Positions 28,758 through 39,947 of a DNA stretch of 64,000 nt are shown here, piece by piece (within the stretch, counting starts at the first letter, position 1; each line of letters begins with the position of its first letter). Source of the stretch: Dictyostelium discoideum (lineage: Eukaryota). Location: positions 4,576,001 to 4,640,000 of the forward strand of contig CM000150.2 of assembly GCA_000004695.1 (NCBI GenBank), read 5' to 3'. The notes under the pieces were generated by a model. That model saw only the letters and a list, made by a program, of their open reading frames with translations, was not told the origin of the DNA and searched no databases. Made by a program: the position numbers and the translations under genes.

Positions 28758-29654
28758 TTAAATTGAATTTGTTGCAGAAAATGATGGATAAGACGAATTT
28801 GAAAGGATTGCGCCAGTATTATTAAAATTTTCAGAATTTATTGATTCTTCTTTAAAGAAATCACTATTTTTTTCTTGTTTTTCTTGTTTTTGTTTTTCTT
28901 GTTTTTCTTGTTTTTGTTTTTCTTTTTCATGTTGTTTTTTCAATTTATTATAATCAACACCACCTTCTTCTAAATTTTGATTTTTAGAATTTTTACTGAC
29001 ATCGAAAAATGGTTTAACTTGATTTAAAATCTTTGAAGTATATCTTAAAGATAATATTGATGATAGGATTGTAAAAGTTGCAGTTAAAAAACTAACACCC
29101 AAAGTTGCATATAAATTTCTATATTCACATTCCATATCATACCCAGTATCTTGTTGATCAGTAACAAGTTCACAAATTTTCTTTGAATCTTTAACAATTA
29201 TTGAATCATAAATTGATATATAGAAACCACCAACTCCAAGTGCAAATAAAAATAATGTTATTAACCAATAGTTTATTTTTGATTTTTTAATAATTGTTGA
29301 TATTAATAAAATTAAATCAATTATAATTATAAAACATATAATTATTCTTTGAATACTACTCCTATCTGCCCAAGCACATTCCGTTGTTAATACAGGTTTA
29401 TCATTATTATATGCTACTATTTTACTTGGTGATAATTTATATGAACATAAATCTTCTTTTTTTTTTTTTTTTTTTTTTTATTTTTTTTTTTTTTTGGTGT
29501 GAGTATTTTTATTTTTATTTTTTTATTTGTATTTTTAAAAAACACAATTACCTGTAACATTTGAAGAAATTTGAGAAAAAGATAATACTAATAAAGCGAT
29601 AACACTTAAAAAATTGAATAAATATAAAGTAATTATTAAAGATTTTAAGAGCAT
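28758..29654 (-). CDS. Tetraspan membrane protein, family member A, 2 exons: complement(join(28758..29455,29552..29654)), about 267 aa
   Basis: Exon 1 is a signal/TM1 (MLLKSLIITLYLFNFLSVIALLVLSF) ending at the G|GTAATT donor. The AAAG acceptor at 29456 continues in phase 1 into DLCSYKLSPSKIVAYNNDKPVLTTECAWADRSS. This is followed by three more TM helices and a charged (KQEKQEKQ) tail. The protein is paralogous to B, C and D. Confidence 0.55.
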
Positions 29655-29943
29655 TTTCTTCTTTTTATTTTTAAATAAAAGAAACAAAAAATTGATATTT
29701 ATTTTTAATTTTTTTTTTTTTTTTTTTTTTTTACAAAAAAAAAAAAAAAAATCTTGGAGCTTTGAGAAAAACAACACAAAAATTAGAAGAAAAAAAAAAA
29801 AATTAGGCTCGATCTGAAAAGATTAAGCAGATCTACTTTTAAAAAAAAAAATACAAATAGATATCAAAAAAAAAAATATATATATATATACAAATATGAT
29901 TTTTATTTTATTATTTATTTTATTTTTTTAAAAATTTTTTTTT

Positions 29944-30819
29944 TTAAATTGAACTAAAAGCTTCATTACCTTTTGTTGATAATGGAGTTGAAGAATTTGG
30001 AGTTGGTTTTGGTTCTTTATCAAATTGTTCATGTTTATGATGATCATGATTATCAAATAATTTATTTCTTTTTATTAAAGTGAATATTGAAATAAAACAA
30101 ACACTAAATGTTGTTAAAATATTAAATGCCAATGTACCATAGTATCTACCAAATTGACATTCTTTACCAACAATAGATAATGTACTATCATTATCACAAT
30201 AATTATAAGAATTTCTTAAAGATGAAGCGTCTCCACCAAATGAATAAAATCCTGCTACACCCAATAATAATAAAATTACTAATAAAATTAAAAATTGAGC
30301 TTTCTTTTTCTTTGCAAATAATACAAATAATAAAATGATTGCAATAACAATTAAAAATTGTAATAAAATTCTAACAAATGATCTTGTTAAACTCCATCCA
30401 CATTGAAAATATGCAATCTCTTTACCATCCACTTTTGAAATCGCTCTATATGGTACTGCTCCTGTATCACAACCTCCTGTCAAATATACACCATTTGTAG
30501 AATCTGTAACTTGTGTAAATGAAAATATTAATGTTAAAATTGATAAAATCTTTAAAACAATAATAATAATAATAATAATAATAATAATAATAATAATAAT
30601 AATAATAATAATAATAATAATAATAATAATAATAATAATAATAATAATAATAATAATAATAATAATAATAATAATAATAATGATAATAAAATAATTTTAT
30701 TTAATTAATTAGTAAAACACATCGAATTTAATTAAATTCAAACATCAATTAAAAAAATAAAAACATACTGCAGTTAAAATTAAAAAAAAGATTACAATAA
30801 CTTTTGAAGGTATCCCCAT
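29944..30819 (-). CDS. Tetraspan membrane protein, family member B, 2 exons: complement(join(29944..30549,30769..30819)), about 218 aa
   Basis: Exon 1 is MGIPSKVIVIFFLILTA followed by a GTATGT donor. The 219-nt intron holds (ATT)n at 30559..30683. The AAAG acceptor at 30550 leads into ILSILTLIFSFTQVTDSTNGVYLTGGCDTGAVPYR...QCGWS, then TM2-TM4 and a His-rich tail (DNHDHHKHEQ). It is paralogous to A, C and D. Confidence 0.55.
30559..30683. repeat. (AAT)n/(ATT)n microsatellite inside the intron of tetraspan gene B
   Basis: A pure trinucleotide run is seen in the sequence. Similar intronic runs occur at 10386..10501, 41761..41890, 44330..44500, 45010..45085 and 62627..62775. Confidence 0.95.
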
Positions 30820-37378: not shown

Positions 37379-38753
37379 TTTTTTTAATTTTATTTTTATT
37401 TTTTATTTTTATCAGTTTATTTAAAAAATTAAAATGATAAAATAATTTTATAATTTGCTCATGTTTAATTTCTTTTTTTTTTTTTTTTTAATTTTATTTT
37501 AATTTTAATTTTAATTTTTTTTTTTTTTTTTTTTTTTTTACACTTAAACAATAAAAAACCATGGTTGTGGTAGTGTTTCGTGTGTGTTGTTTGAATAAAA
37601 AAAAAAAAAAAAAAACCGAGTGTCTCTTTGATTTTAAAAAGTATAAATATAAAAAAAATAGGAGAACATTATAAAAAAATAAATTAAAAAAAAAAAAAAA
37701 AATTTAAATAAAAAATAAAAAGATCTGGGGGAATGAAAAGACAAACGTTTTTTTTATTTTTTTTTTTTTTTATTTTTTTTTTATTTCTTTTTTATTTTTT
37801 TTTTTATTTTTTTTATTTTTTTTTTGAATTTCAAAGCAACAATTTTATTTTCCCTTCAAAAACCAATCAGTCTTCAAATACGCATATGCCCATTTTTTAT
37901 TTTTTTATTTGAAAAATTAATTTTTTATTTTAATTTAATATTTATTTTAATTTTTTTTTTTTTTTTTTTTTTTTTTTTTGGGAAAATATCTATCGAGATA
38001 TCATTCCAAATTTAGATTAATCTAAAAATCATCCCACAAATTGATGAGTATAATTTTGACCTTGTTGATAGTAATAATCTTTGAAAATTCAATTAACAAT
38101 CAAACTCTTAACTTTTTTTTTTTTTTTTTTTTTTTAGTTTTAAAGAAAAACAAACAAATAAAAAAAAAAAAAAAACCATTTTTTCAGTTTAAACATTCCT
38201 TTTCCTACAAACACAAACAACTTTTTTTTTTTTTTTTTTTAATTTCTTTTTTTCAAAACTATTTTCTTTATTTCTTTTTTTTTTTAATTTGTTTTTTTTA
38301 TTTTTTGGAATTGAAAAAATTGCATTAGTGATTGGAAAAAAGTGTATAGGAAAAAAAAAAAAAAAAAAAAAAAAAAAAAAGTGAAAAAAAATTTAAAAAT
38401 AAAAATTAAATGAAAAAAAGATTTTTTAATTTACAATTCAAATAATTGTGAAGAAAAGGCATGTGATCAAAAAGTGTGAATTAATTTTTAATTTTTTAAT
38501 TTTTTTTTTATTTTTTTAATTTTTTTTTTTTTATTATATAAATAAAAAAAAAAAAAAAAAAAAAAATAAATACCACAAAAACATACACTATTTATTTTTA
38601 TTCTTAATTTTTTTAAATAAAAAAAAAAAAACACATAAAACACATAAAACACATATACAACATAAAAATAAAATTACCCAAAAAAAAAGAAATTTTTTTC
38701 TTTATAAAATTAAAATAAAGAAAAAAAAAAAAAAAAAAAAATAAAAAAAAAAG

Positions 38754-39947
38754 ATGCAAAAACCAAAAGTTTTAAAATTTATCTATAGTTTTATTCTTAG
38801 GCTTTCACTAATTGTTTTAGGTTTATCATTTTCTCAAATTACAAATAAATATAAAGGACAATCATATGGTACAATTGGTAAATATTTTTTTTTTTTTTTT
38901 TTCATTTTTCTCTAGACAAAAAGAAAAATAATAAATTTAATCATTAATATAAATAAAAATCTAAAGAGATCACTAAGAGTTATGTAGATACAATTTGTTT
39001 ATACTCAGAAGCTGTACCATATACTCAAACATTTCTCTTTTATGCAACTGAATGGCAACGTATCAACACAACAGATTCATCATCATCAAATACAACAACA
39101 CCAAACAACAATTCAACAGATAGTCAAACAACACCAACTACAAATGATGGTTGGGGAAATGTTGTTGTGGGAGTGGAAGAAGGTTTTGTGGAATGTGCTT
39201 GGAGAAATAGAAATTCAGTATTAAGAGTTATTGTACACATTCTTTCAATTTTATCATGTGTAATTGCTTTAACCTTAATTAAAAAACAAAAATTAAATCC
39301 ATTTTTAGTTGTAAGTATAGATAGATCCTATTTTATTATTTTCAAATACAACATATGGTTTGTATGTTAACATATATATATATATATATATATATATATA
39401 ATTTTTATATTTTGTATTTTAGAATGCATATTTAATGACAATTATAGGTATGGCTGGAATTTATTCTGGTGTAGTTGATAGTATTGGAGTTAAAAGAGCA
39501 TATGATTTTTGTATGACATTAAGTCCATTTTATAGTTCAGATTGTTATTATAAAGCATTTAATTGTACAGTTGTATTGAATTTCTTATGTTCTGCATTCT
39601 TATTCATTTGTGCAGTTTTATCAAGTAGATTTAGATATATACTTTTTAATGAAAGTGGTGATGTAAATAATAATAATACTAATAATAATAGTAGCAATAG
39701 CAATAGCAATAGCAATAGCAATAGAAATCCATCAAATACAAGAAATAGAGAAGTTGATATTGAAAATAATGCATCATCACCAAATAATATTGAATTGAAA
39801 CCACCAAAACCTTCAAAACCTTCAAAACCATCCAAAAATAATAGAGATCATTCAATTTTAGAAGAGGAAGTTGATTTTGAAAATAATGGAACTATTTTAA
39901 CTACAAATGATCAATACATAACCTCAAATAATGATAGAGATTTATAA
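38754..39947 (+). CDS. Tetraspan membrane protein, family member D, 3 exons: join(38754..38877,38979..39310,39423..39947), about 326 aa
   Basis: Exon 1 is a signal/TM1 (MQKPKVLKFIYSFILRLSLIVLGLSFSQ) ending at G|GTAAAT. Exon 2 is EYVDTICLYSEAVPY...ECAWRNRNSVLRVIVHILSILSCVIALTLIKKQK, which aligns to A/B/C, and ends at the GTAAGT donor at 39311. Intron 2 contains (AT)n. Exon 3 is NAYLMTIIGMAGIYSGVVD...C...C... plus an N/S-rich tail. Confidence 0.5.

What the first reader, a model, noticed from the sequence alone, without database searches (positions are those of the whole stretch)
28758..39947. Cluster of four paralogous tetraspan membrane proteins (three tandem on the minus strand, one on the plus strand 6.5 kb away)
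Genes A (28758-29654), B (29944-30819), C (31306-32218) and D (38754-39947) share one architecture. Each has a short signal/TM1 exon and then an extracellular loop with conserved D-x-C-x-Y ... P ... (E/Q)C-x-W just before TM2. A short basic loop (KKxK) follows, then TM3 containing LGVGGFY/IGGFGGY, a second Cys-containing loop (C...D...EC), TM4, and a divergent charged or His-rich cytoplasmic tail. A, B and C end in -SI; D has a longer tail ending in -DL. The introns fall at equivalent positions. I do not recognise the family; it differs from tetraspanins (no CCG) and from claudin/PMP22 (no GLW). It may be a lineage-specific tetraspan family that is expanding locally.
Basis: partly seen in the sequence, partly recalled or inferred. 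Interest (0 to 1): 0.6.

Follow-up and report, generated by a model that had tools for sequence, protein, structure and literature searches.

The report
Four paralogs of an unnamed tetraspan family
Four neighbouring Dictyostelium genes encode four-pass membrane proteins of a conserved but unnamed and unstudied family that also occurs in many other protists; it is a real family of unknown function, not a lineage-specific oddity.

Summary
The window is D. discoideum AX4 chromosome 1. The four genes are DDB_G0270300, -302, -304 and -310, all annotated as hypothetical. My spliced models reproduce the annotated proteins exactly. They are true paralogs (23-36% identity) with four TM helices. The signature is C38..P44..C61-x-W63..R71..D118..C129..C144.

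No Pfam model or PDB sequence claims the family, and the claudin and tetraspanin motifs are absent. However, it is not lineage-specific. An exhaustive HMMER search found 122 cluster representatives. The roughly 30 I looked up include all four dictyostelid groups, Mastigamoeba, Soliformovum, a jakobid, a diplonemid and Rhodelphis. The signature is nearly invariant in the 117 aligned. The duplications are old: D. purpureum also has a tandem trio.

AlphaFold2 gives a very confident model: a four-helix bundle, an extended TM3 and a three-stranded beta cap. Cysteine co-loss suggests one intraloop disulfide per loop. Fold searches do not discriminate between candidate folds. The only sequence-level lead is a weak, local similarity to the TM3-TM4 hairpin of Tweety homolog 1.

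My best reading is a dimer-forming, non-enzymatic membrane organiser with a conserved polar site at the outer-leaflet boundary. The paralogs are specialised through their cytosolic tails. The function is inferred, not shown.

The parts
29552..29654 (-). Gene A (DDB_G0270300) exon 1: Met plus the whole of TM1, ending NVT; phase-1 donor GTAATT
   Evidence: The spliced product is identical to P0002.
28758..29455 (-). Gene A exon 2: ECL1 (C38, P44, C61-A-W63), TM2, KKSK loop, TM3, ECL2 (C129, C144), TM4 and a 95-aa cytosolic tail ending -TNSI; includes the stop codon
   Evidence: The AF2 models cover this protein.
30769..30819 (-). Gene B (DDB_G0270302) exon 1: 17 codons, the first half of TM1; phase-0 donor GTATGT
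   Evidence: Identical to P0137.
29944..30549 (-). Gene B exon 2: the rest of TM1 through TM4, an H-rich tail (HDHHKH) and C-terminus -FSSI
32177..32218 (-). Gene C (DDB_G0270304) exon 1: 14 codons, the start of TM1; phase 0
   Evidence: Identical to P0141.
31795..32049 (-). Gene C exon 2: the rest of TM1, ECL1, TM2 and the basic loop, ending ...RFSFIF; phase 0
31306..31638 (-). Gene C exon 3: TM3, ECL2, TM4, an H7 run directly after TM4 and C-terminus -SNSI
38754..38877 (+). Gene D (DDB_G0270310) exon 1: Met plus TM1, ending ...YGTI; phase-1 donor GTAAAT
   Evidence: Identical to P0003.
38967..39310 (+). Gene D exon 2: ECL1, enlarged by a low-complexity S/T/N insert with N-glycosylation sequons, then E-C-A-W, TM2 and the KKQK loop; phase 0
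39423..39947 (+). Gene D exon 3: TM3, ECL2, TM4 and a 106-aa tail. The last ~35 residues (…DFENNGTILTTNDQYITSNNDRDL) are conserved in orthologs and resemble the end of A's tail.

Best explanation
The four genes are ancient tandem paralogs. They belong to a conserved, so far unnamed eukaryotic tetraspan family.

Shown:
- Each protein has four TM helices.
- Charge distribution indicates that both termini are cytosolic.
- AlphaFold2 predicts with high confidence a compact antiparallel four-helix bundle. TM3 continues about 17 residues beyond the membrane.
- A beta-hairpin from loop 1 and one strand from loop 2 are predicted; I read them as a small three-stranded cap over the bundle.
- The residues conserved across 117 relatives all lie on the extracytoplasmic side. 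They are Q28 at the end of TM1, C38, P44, C61-x-W63 and N-S-A-x-R71 at the start of TM2, D118 where TM3 leaves the membrane, C129, C144, and D/N156 at the start of TM4.

Inferred:
- Each loop is locked by its own disulfide (C38-C61 and C129-C144). The proteins therefore mature in the secretory pathway and face the cell exterior or an organelle lumen.
- Q28, R71, D118 and D/N156, one per helix, form a buried polar site at the outer-leaflet boundary under the beta cap. This site binds a lipid head group, an ion or a partner protein.
- The working unit is at least a dimer.
- The protein is not an enzyme. It acts as a membrane organiser or auxiliary subunit.
- The four paralogs keep the same core but differ in cytosolic tails that set trafficking and partners. 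C and B have a His run after TM4. A and D share an acidic F-x-N-x-G-x-I-L tail. A, B and C end in [S/A]-I.
For: Identity and paralogy.

Family breadth: the exhaustive HMMER search found 122 representatives at E<=1e-3 and 37 at E<=1e-10. Taxon names come, and a eukaryotic metagenome contig.

Signature: C38 114/114 non-gap residues, P44 114/114, C61 116/116, W63 111/116, R71 113/116, D118 116/117, C129 112/116, C144 111/114.

Disulfide pairing:
- Three members replace C129 and C144 together while keeping C38 and C61.
- By my reading of the sequences printed, both repeats of three double-domain members (P0044, P0078, P0109) have G/S-x-W in place of C-x-W in loop 1 but keep the loop-2 Cys pair.

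Topology:
- The TM2-TM3 loop has K+R density 0.33 and net charge +2.4. Both long loops are net negative and carry the Cys residues and N-x-S/T sequons.
- 30 of 117 members have at least 30 residues before TM1, so TM1 is a real TM helix and not a cleaved signal peptide.

Fold:
- AF2 with 10 sequences gave pLDDT 83 and pTM 0.78.
- AF2 with 117 sequences gave 173 residues at pLDDT >=90, and 10-residue block means of 80-98 through residue 180.
- Both runs gave the same elements: H2-27, E45-51, E54-61, H65-91, H94-135, E141-145, H147-172.

Dimer hint: five members carry two complete or partial copies in one polypeptide. They are from Mastigamoeba, Diplonema, Rhodelphis and two environmental contigs.

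Tails:
- His runs sit right after TM4 in B, C, Heterostelium, Tieghemostelium and Cavenderia.
- The C-terminal residue is Ile in 27/117 members and I/L/V in 47/117.
- The tails of A and D are conserved in their orthologs.
Against: - No experiment bears on these genes. No paper in the library mentions the four gene ids.
- I could not inspect model coordinates. The R71-D118 contact, the polar cluster and the disulfide geometry are inferred from sequence position and co-loss, not seen.
- Cys co-loss rests on six proteins, three of them read by eye rather than counted.
- Fused double-domain proteins may partly be gene-model fusions, for example the Mastigamoeba ABC-transporter fusion.
- C-terminal Ile enrichment was compared only with a rough background expectation, and some sequences are fragments.
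- 'Organiser or auxiliary subunit' is a default reading for small tetraspans. A transport or channel role is not excluded.
Confidence: 0.5

Rival explanations
1. The family is a distant, minimal relative of the Tweety homologs (TTYH). Its four helices would correspond to TTYH TM2-TM5, and D118 and C129 to the conserved acidic residue and Cys just outside TTYH TM4. Like TTYH, it would hold lipid-like molecules in a pocket that opens from the outer leaflet.
For: - The family profile's only PDB hit below E=0.1 is TTYH1 (E=9.3e-4). It aligns TM2, the basic loop, TM3 and 'D..S..WC' with TTYH1 residues 221-304.
- The score is 25.6 bits. Segment-wise shuffles give 4.2+-3.3 bits, with a maximum of 18.4 in 2000.
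- hhalign against TTYH1/2/3 fragments gives 86% probability and a score of 37.1. Column shuffles give 16.5+-3.7, with a maximum of 32.8 in 150.
- hhalign gives 78% against TTYH1 alone, 0.2% for claudin-4, 0.6% for synaptophysin and 1% for an unrelated multi-TM protein.
- Pfam Tweety hits member P0049 at 2.5e-5 in the same region.
- In TTYH, TM2-5 form the four-helix bundle. It has an acidic residue at the extracellular border and a disulfide-stabilised flap (PMC8361169).
Against: - The similarity covers one TM hairpin of about 80 columns and does not extend. Against full-length TTYH1/2 the probability drops to 53%.
- The family HMM scores TTYH2 at only 7.8 bits.
- Only 1 of 117 members reaches Pfam Tweety, and that hit is below the gathering score (23.6 vs 31.8 bits).
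- The family lacks TTYH's TM1 and its large helical ectodomain.
Confidence: 0.2
2. They are claudin/PMP22-type proteins: a four-TM bundle with an extracellular beta-sheet, used for cell-cell contact, barrier formation or as auxiliary subunits.
For: - Foldseek's best PDB matches are claudin-fold chains: designed claudin fold 6.5e-3, claudin-19 9.9e-3 (TM 0.48/0.53), then claudin-3, claudin-4, TARPs and Cav gamma-1.
- The model has an extended TM3 and a sheet built from both loops.
- A C-terminal hydrophobic residue recalls the PDZ-binding ends of claudins and TARPs (own knowledge).
Against: - No Foldseek hit reaches E<=1e-3, and rmsd values are 6-8 A.
- There is no W-GLW-C-C motif.
- There is no Pfam claudin, PMP22, SUR7 or LHFPL hit even at E<=10.
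- No claudin or TARP chain is found by the family profile.
- hhalign against claudin-4 gives 0.2%.
- The sheet has three strands rather than five. The loop-1 Cys spacing is at least 22 residues, against the 8-10 I recall for claudins.
- The family is mainly found in unicellular protists.
Confidence: 0.1
3. They are MARVEL-domain proteins, like MAL, the physins, gyrins and occludin. They would act in vesicle trafficking or membrane apposition.
For: - UniRef names three D. purpureum members 'MARVEL domain-containing protein'.
- Pfam MARVEL weakly hits 4 of 117 members, best E=7.9e-4.
- Synaptophysin also has one disulfide in each luminal loop (own knowledge).
Against: - None of the four window proteins lists MARVEL even at E<=10.
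- 113 of 117 relatives do not match it at E<=0.01.
- hhalign against synaptophysin gives 0.6%.
- The family profile finds no MARVEL chain in the PDB.
Confidence: 0.1
4. They assemble into an oligomeric pore, as connexins, pannexins, LRRC8 and CALHM do. Those are also four-TM proteins with disulfide-bonded loops.
For: - The proteins share the same four-TM topology and have Cys pairs in both loops.
- Fused double-domain members suggest oligomerisation.
Against: - The disulfides appear to be intraloop, whereas I recall these channels using inter-loop disulfides (own knowledge).
- The four-helix bundle is tightly packed, and the conserved residues sit at the outer boundary rather than along a pore-lining face.
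- There is no sequence hit to these families.
Confidence: 0.05

Closest known systems
Tweety homologs (TTYH1-3; Pfam PF04906)
   Same: - The core is a four-helix TM bundle (TTYH TM2-5) with a very short basic cytosolic loop between the middle helices.
- An acidic residue sits where the third helix leaves the membrane, followed 11 residues later by an aromatic-Cys pair.
- The extracytoplasmic elements are stabilised by disulfides.
- TTYH is a dimer.
- TTYH1 also ends in -SSI.
   Different: - There is no fifth (N-terminal) helix and no large helical ectodomain.
- The loops are 35-50 aa and form beta strands.
- The sequence similarity is local, weak and largely specific to TTYH1.
- The Pfam score is below threshold in the one member that matches.
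Claudin / PMP22 / TARP fold (Pfam PF00822, PF13903)
   Same: - Four TM helices with both termini cytosolic.
- TM3 extends out of the membrane.
- A beta-sheet is built from loop 1 and loop 2.
- Loop 1 carries a disulfide.
- The cytosolic tails are variable and end in a hydrophobic residue.
- These are the top Foldseek hits.
   Different: - No W-GLW-C-C motif.
- Three strands rather than five.
- A second disulfide in loop 2.
- No HMM or profile similarity.
- TM-scores are about 0.35-0.53.
MARVEL domain proteins, especially synaptophysin (Pfam PF01284)
   Same: - Four TM helices with both termini cytosolic.
- One disulfide in each luminal loop in synaptophysin (own knowledge).
- A long, variable cytosolic tail.
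- The best TM-score, 0.56.
- UniRef applies this label to three D. purpureum members.
   Different: - The Pfam model does not match the window proteins, and matches only 4/117 relatives weakly.
- hhalign against synaptophysin gives 0.6%.
- The conserved C-P-CxW-R-D-C-C signature has no counterpart that I know of in MARVEL proteins.

Membership tests
Unnamed 'C-P-CxW-R-D-C-C' tetraspan family (defined here) | Four TM helices plus the signature C38, P44, C61-x-W63, R71, D118, C129, C144 (gene A numbering) | tested here: met
   All eight positions are present in A, B, C and D. They are present in 111-116 of 117 relatives. Profile E-values for B and C representatives are 1.5e-59 and 8.1e-56.
Claudin / PMP22 / EMP / MP20 superfamily | W-x(n)-GLW-x2-C-x(8-10)-C motif in extracellular loop 1 | tested here: not met
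   No GLW is present. The loop-1 Cys residues are at least 22 apart, and the W follows the second Cys.
Claudin / PMP22 / EMP / MP20 superfamily | Match to Pfam PF00822, PF13903 or related models (SUR7, LHFPL, Fig1) | tested here: not met
   These models are not listed at E<=10 for the four proteins or at E<=0.01 for 117 relatives. hhalign against claudin-4, whose sequence was verified against 7tdm_A, gives 0.2%.
Claudin / PMP22 / EMP / MP20 superfamily | Claudin fold: left-handed four-helix bundle with a five-stranded extracellular sheet | tested here: inconclusive
   The top Foldseek hits are claudin-fold chains, but E>=6.5e-3, TM-scores are 0.35-0.53 and rmsd is 6-8 A. The model has three strands.
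Tetraspanin | CCG motif in a large second extracellular loop; Pfam PF00335 | tested here: not met
   No CCG is present. PF00335 appears only once, in P0083 at E=0.015 over one TM hairpin.
MARVEL domain | Match to Pfam PF01284 across the four helices | tested here: not met
   PF01284 is absent for A-D at E<=10. It matches 4/117 relatives, best E=7.9e-4. hhalign against synaptophysin gives 0.6%. The UniRef label on three D. purpureum members is a lead only.
Tweety (TTYH) | Five TM helices with an extracellular N-terminus | tested here: not met
   There are four helices. The N-terminus is short or cytosolic by charge distribution, and no helix precedes TM1.
Tweety (TTYH) | Large helical extracellular domain (E1-E6) formed by two loops I estimate at over 100 aa each | tested here: not met
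   The family's loops average 52 and 35 aa and are predicted as beta strands. The TTYH architecture is taken from PMC8361169.
Tweety (TTYH) | Match to Pfam PF04906 above its gathering score | tested here: not met
   Only P0049 matches, at 23.6 bits against a cut-off of 31.8, over profile positions 211-267.
Tweety (TTYH) | Homology of the TM3-loop-TM4 hairpin, with the acidic residue and Cys at the extracellular border | tested here: inconclusive
Connexin / pannexin / LRRC8 / CALHM large-pore channels | Inter-loop disulfides and a pore-lining N-terminal element in a hexamer or larger oligomer | not testable with these tools

The most novel reading that the evidence does not exclude
The family is the minimal four-helix form of the Tweety lineage: a 'mini-Tweety' that keeps the TM2-TM5 bundle, the border acidic residue and the adjacent Cys, but lacks TM1 and the helical ectodomain. 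If so, Dictyostelium, with four clustered and easily deleted paralogs, would become a genetic model for the still unknown core function of TTYH proteins, which may be handling of outer-leaflet lipids. It would also push the origin of that fold back to early eukaryotes.
Probability: 0.2. Interest if true: 0.6.

Novelty: new variant of a known kind. Interest (0 to 1): 0.35.

Why it matters
The result defines a compact protein family that no curated model covers. It has a sharply conserved eight-residue signature and a very confident predicted fold. It is spread across several eukaryotic supergroups, and four copies sit within 11 kb in a genetically tractable organism.

Small tetraspans such as claudins, TARPs, tetraspanins, MARVEL proteins and TTYH repeatedly turn out to organise membranes or tune partner proteins. 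A new class with a conserved polar site at the outer-leaflet boundary is therefore a reasonable target for knockout and localisation work. A confirmed Tweety link would give a simple model for a human protein family whose function is still disputed. As it stands, this is an uncharacterised family of modest interest and not a surprising mechanism.

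Tried and rejected
The exhaustive representative search was what revealed the family.
- The afdb50 fold library was not installed, so no search against annotated AlphaFold models was possible.
- A weak tblastn hit of A at window 48835-48975 lies inside an unrelated 1226-aa ORF and is chance.
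- The NJ tree of dictyostelid members is poorly supported, with deep nodes at or below 50% bootstrap. I use it only as a hint that C is the ancestral type.
- The TTYH paper's supplementary alignment is an image. I obtained the TTYH1 and TTYH2 sequences by aligning a recalled TTYH1 sequence to PDB chains.
- The literature searches I ran (the four gene ids; Dictyostelium with 'MARVEL domain' or 'claudin-like') found nothing relevant.
- I considered DsbB- or VKOR-like redox proteins and rejected them: there is no CXXC motif and the Cys spacing is long and variable.

Full report
**1. What is in the sequence**

The window has 20.8% G+C. It is Dictyostelium discoideum AX4 chromosome 1. Gene A's product is 100% identical to DDB_G0270300, and gene D's product is DDB_G0270310, both on a 4,923,596-bp contig.

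I built GT..AG spliced models from the three-frame translations:
- A: 29654..29552 and 29455..28758, minus strand, 266 aa.
- B: 30819..30769 and 30549..29944, minus strand, 218 aa.
- C: 32218..32177, 32049..31795 and 31638..31306, minus strand, 209 aa.
- D: 38754..38877, 38967..39310 and 39423..39947, plus strand, 330 aa.

All four translate exactly to the deposited proteins P0002, P0137 (DDB_G0270302, Q55BZ1), P0141 (DDB_G0270304, Q55BZ0) and P0003. An independent gene call on another D. discoideum assembly gives products of the same lengths in the same order. All four are annotated as hypothetical or uncharacterised. No paper in the library mentions any of the four ids.

**2. Are they paralogs?**

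Yes. Pairwise BLASTP E-values range from 1e-10 to 4e-30 at 23-36% identity. The four-way alignment has 20 invariant columns. They include C38, P44, C61, W63, S68, R71, K91, G108, G111, Y113, D118, C129, C144 and T152 in gene A numbering. Hydropathy finds four hydrophobic segments in A, B and C at matching positions; the script stopped before D, which aligns to them throughout.

- 'D-x-C-x-Y' holds only loosely, in A and D.
- E/Q before the second Cys is present in three of four.
- Introns are equivalent only in pairs. A and D share a phase-1 intron just after TM1. B and C share a phase-0 intron inside TM1. C and D share a phase-0 intron between TM2 and TM3.

Other features follow the same pairing. 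A and D share a conserved tail end. B and C share the 'STNG' stretch after TM1 and a His-rich tail. This suggests two older lineages, A/D and B/C.

**3. The family is much wider than Dictyostelium**

Pfam finds nothing near its cut-offs for the four proteins. The word-indexed homolog search returned only group-4 Dictyostelium orthologs.

An exhaustive HMMER search used a trimmed profile against 1.84 billion cluster representatives. It found 122 proteins at E<=1e-3 and 37 at E<=1e-10. Members whose source names an organism come from:
- D. purpureum, with five members.
- Heterostelium album, Tieghemostelium lacteum and Cavenderia fasciculata. With group 4, these cover all four dictyostelid groups.
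- The amoebozoans Mastigamoeba balamuthi and Soliformovum irregulare.
- The jakobid Stygiella incarcerata.
- Diplonema japonicum and Rhodelphis limneticus.

Many others sit on about 1-kb contigs from JGI metagenome or metatranscriptome samples. One lies on a 109-kb gene-dense eukaryotic contig next to SURF1, EMP70, a mitochondrial carrier and XRN.

In an alignment of 117 representatives the signature is almost invariant among non-gap residues: C38 114/114, P44 114/114, C61 116/116, W63 111/116, R71 113/116, D118 116/117, C129 112/116 and C144 111/114. Further strong positions are S25, Q28, R46, D53, N67, S125, W128, Y146, F/Y149, T152 and D/N/E156.

None of the 117 consistently matches any Pfam model. 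The best recurrent families are MARVEL and DUF4131, at 4/117 each and weak. Gene tables that carry precomputed Pfam hits, including recent accessions, show '-' for these genes. So 'unrecognised family' is right and 'lineage-specific' is wrong.

**4. Age of the cluster**

D. purpureum has three members in tandem on one strand (247, 189 and 185 aa). It has two more elsewhere, one of them on the same 76-kb contig. The neighbour-joining tree is poorly resolved. It places C with the Cavenderia, Heterostelium and Tieghemostelium members, and all of these carry a His run immediately after TM4. The D. discoideum paralogs are only 23-36% identical. The cluster is therefore an old tandem expansion, probably within or before group 4, and not an ongoing one.

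**5. Topology and fold**

The eight-residue TM2-TM3 loop has K+R density 0.33 and net charge +2.4. The two long loops are net negative and carry all conserved Cys residues and most N-x-S/T sequons. Thirty of 117 members have at least 30 residues before TM1, and 18 have at least 60. TM1 is therefore a true membrane helix and not a cleaved signal peptide. This gives four TM helices with both termini in the cytosol.

AlphaFold2 on the core with a 10-sequence alignment gave pLDDT 83 and pTM 0.78. With the 117-sequence alignment it gave 173 residues at pLDDT >=90, with 10-residue block means of 80-98 through residue 180.

Both runs gave the same elements:
- Helices 2-27, 65-91, 94-135 and 147-172.
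- A beta-hairpin at 45-51/54-61 in loop 1.
- A strand at 141-145 in loop 2.

TM3 thus runs about 17 residues beyond its hydrophobic stretch. I infer that the three strands form a small cap over the bundle. I could not see coordinates.

**6. Disulfides and dimers**

Three members replace C129 and C144 together while keeping C38 and C61. By my reading of the sequences printed, both repeats of three double-domain members (P0044, P0078, P0109) lack the two loop-1 Cys but keep the loop-2 pair. This co-loss pattern suggests C38-C61 and C129-C144, one disulfide within each loop. The inference rests on six proteins, three of them read by eye.

Five members contain two copies of the unit in one chain. 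They come from Mastigamoeba (after an ABC-transporter half), Diplonema, Rhodelphis and two environmental contigs. This hints that the unit works at least as a pair, although some of these may be fused gene models.

**7. Comparison with known families**

Sequence level:
- The family profile finds no claudin, TARP, tetraspanin, MARVEL, connexin or pannexin chain in the PDB at E<=10.
- hhalign of the family alignment gives 0.2% against claudin-4 and 0.6% against synaptophysin. Both sequences were verified against PDB chains.

Structure level:
- Foldseek finds no PDB match at E<=1e-3.
- Its best hits are claudin-fold chains: a designed claudin fold, claudin-19/-3/-4, TARPs and Cav gamma-1. They have E of 6.5e-3 or worse and TM-scores of 0.35-0.53. 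Synaptophysin has the best TM-score, 0.56.

The one sequence lead is Tweety. In its favour:
- The profile's only PDB hit below E=0.1 is TTYH1 (E=9.3e-4). It aligns TM2, the basic loop, TM3 and 'D..S..WC' to TTYH1 residues 221-304.
- The score of 25.6 bits exceeds all 2000 segment-wise shuffles, which give 4.2+-3.3 bits with a maximum of 18.4.
- hhalign gives 86% against an alignment of the TTYH1/2/3 fragments. The score of 37.1 compares with 16.5+-3.7 for column shuffles, maximum 32.8 in 150.
- hhalign gives 78% against TTYH1 alone.
- Pfam Tweety hits one member, P0049, at 2.5e-5 over the same hairpin, although below its gathering score.
- Structurally, TTYH TM2-5 form a four-helix bundle. It has a conserved acidic residue at the extracellular border and a disulfide-stabilised flap over a lipid-filled cavity (PMC8361169).

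Against it:
- With full-length TTYH1 and TTYH2 the match stays at 81 columns and falls to 53%.
- TTYH2 scores only 7.8 bits with the family HMM.
- A TTYH HMM scores no family member except P0049 above 13 bits.

I therefore treat the Tweety link as a lead, at about 0.2 probability, and not as a finding.

The UniRef label 'MARVEL domain-containing' on three D. purpureum members is not borne out by Pfam MARVEL on the window proteins.

**8. How it most likely works**

Shown:
- A four-TM family with both termini cytosolic.
- A confident predicted four-helix bundle with beta strands in both loops.
- All strongly conserved residues lie on the extracytoplasmic side.
- Tail motifs are specific to each paralog.

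Inferred:
- The two intraloop disulfides imply maturation in the secretory pathway. The loops face the cell exterior or an organelle lumen.
- Q28, R71, D118 and D/N156 each sit where one of the four helices meets the outer leaflet. They probably form a buried polar site beneath the cap, which could bind a lipid head group, an ion or a partner.
- The protein has no catalytic-looking motif and probably acts as a dimeric membrane organiser or auxiliary subunit.

The paralogs differ mainly in their tails:
- A His run directly after TM4 occurs in C and B and in the Cavenderia, Heterostelium and Tieghemostelium members. This may indicate metal or pH sensing.
- The conserved acidic ends of A and D carry an F-x-N-x-G-x-I-L motif.
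- A, B and C end in [S/A]-I. Similar endings occur as far away as Stygiella (-ASAI). Ile is the last residue in 27 of 117 members. Ile makes up only a few percent of residues in typical proteins (own knowledge; no control computed). From general knowledge of membrane-protein sorting, this could be an ER-export or PDZ-type signal.

None of this has been tested experimentally.

**9. Verdict**

- Among known kinds, the family is a new variant of the small disulfide-bonded tetraspan class.
- Interest is modest at 0.35. It is a clean, tractable, uncharacterised family, and it would be of more interest if the Tweety connection proved real.

Noticed in passing
window 17105-17521, 18432-18848, 19762-20175, 21029-21445 (minus strand): Four nearly identical tandem copies, differing by a few residues, of a 137-138 aa protein with a hydrophobic N-terminus. 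In another assembly the three copies that fall within the fetched locus carry the CBM49 carbohydrate-binding domain. The copies repeat about every 1.3 kb, which suggests a recent tandem amplification.
   Followed up: partly
window 30559-30695: An (AAT)46 microsatellite at 97% matches fills most of the 219-bp intron of gene B.
   Followed up: no
window 31008-31170: An 84-bp unit is repeated twice (83% matches) in the spacer between genes B and C.
   Followed up: no
window 38986-38987 (gene D intron 1): An in-frame alternative acceptor AG lies 21 nt downstream of the annotated one. Using it would place D's phase-1 intron exactly three codons before the first Cys, as in gene A. The seven extra residues (EITKSYV) are conserved in orthologs, so the annotated site is probably the one used.
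   Followed up: partly
window 5312-7474, 11614-14316, 14927-16864 (plus strand): Three large ORFs all carry FNIP repeats (Pfam PF05725). This is another local paralog group.
   Followed up: no
window 45793-49473 (minus strand): A 1226-aa uninterrupted ORF has a Cys-rich N-terminal part and, by eye, several hydrophobic stretches near the C-terminus. It has no Pfam hit at 1e-5. A weak tblastn hit of gene A inside it is chance.
   Followed up: partly
window 34085-35533 (plus) and 35669-37378 (minus), between genes C and D: Two unrelated genes separate C from D. The first carries PF28397 (DG1062_N) in the precomputed table, but my Pfam copy finds nothing at 1e-5. The second has no family.
   Followed up: no
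P0001 (Dictyostelium cf. discoideum ACTFIY_000152, 426 aa): This deposited protein is an A-type sequence joined to a B-type sequence. It is probably a fused gene model across the A-B spacer.
   Followed up: no
P0039 (Mastigamoeba balamuthi, 1127 aa); P0044, P0078, P0109, P0059: Some family members carry two copies of the four-TM unit in one chain. The Mastigamoeba protein has them after an ABC-transporter half. These may be real fusions or annotation artefacts.
   Followed up: partly
PDB 7p5j_A (human TTYH1), C-terminus: Before the construct's extra residues, TTYH1 ends in ...QWQSSI. This is the same -SSI ending as gene B and resembles the -NSI of A and C. It may be coincidence.
   Followed up: no
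window 26557-27687 and 25058-26080 (plus strand): Just downstream of gene A lie an actin gene (376 aa, Pfam Actin E=7e-152) and a cytidylyltransferase-like gene. In the fetched 20-kb D. purpureum locus, the genes flanking the tandem trio are different, so flank synteny is not obviously conserved.
   Followed up: partly
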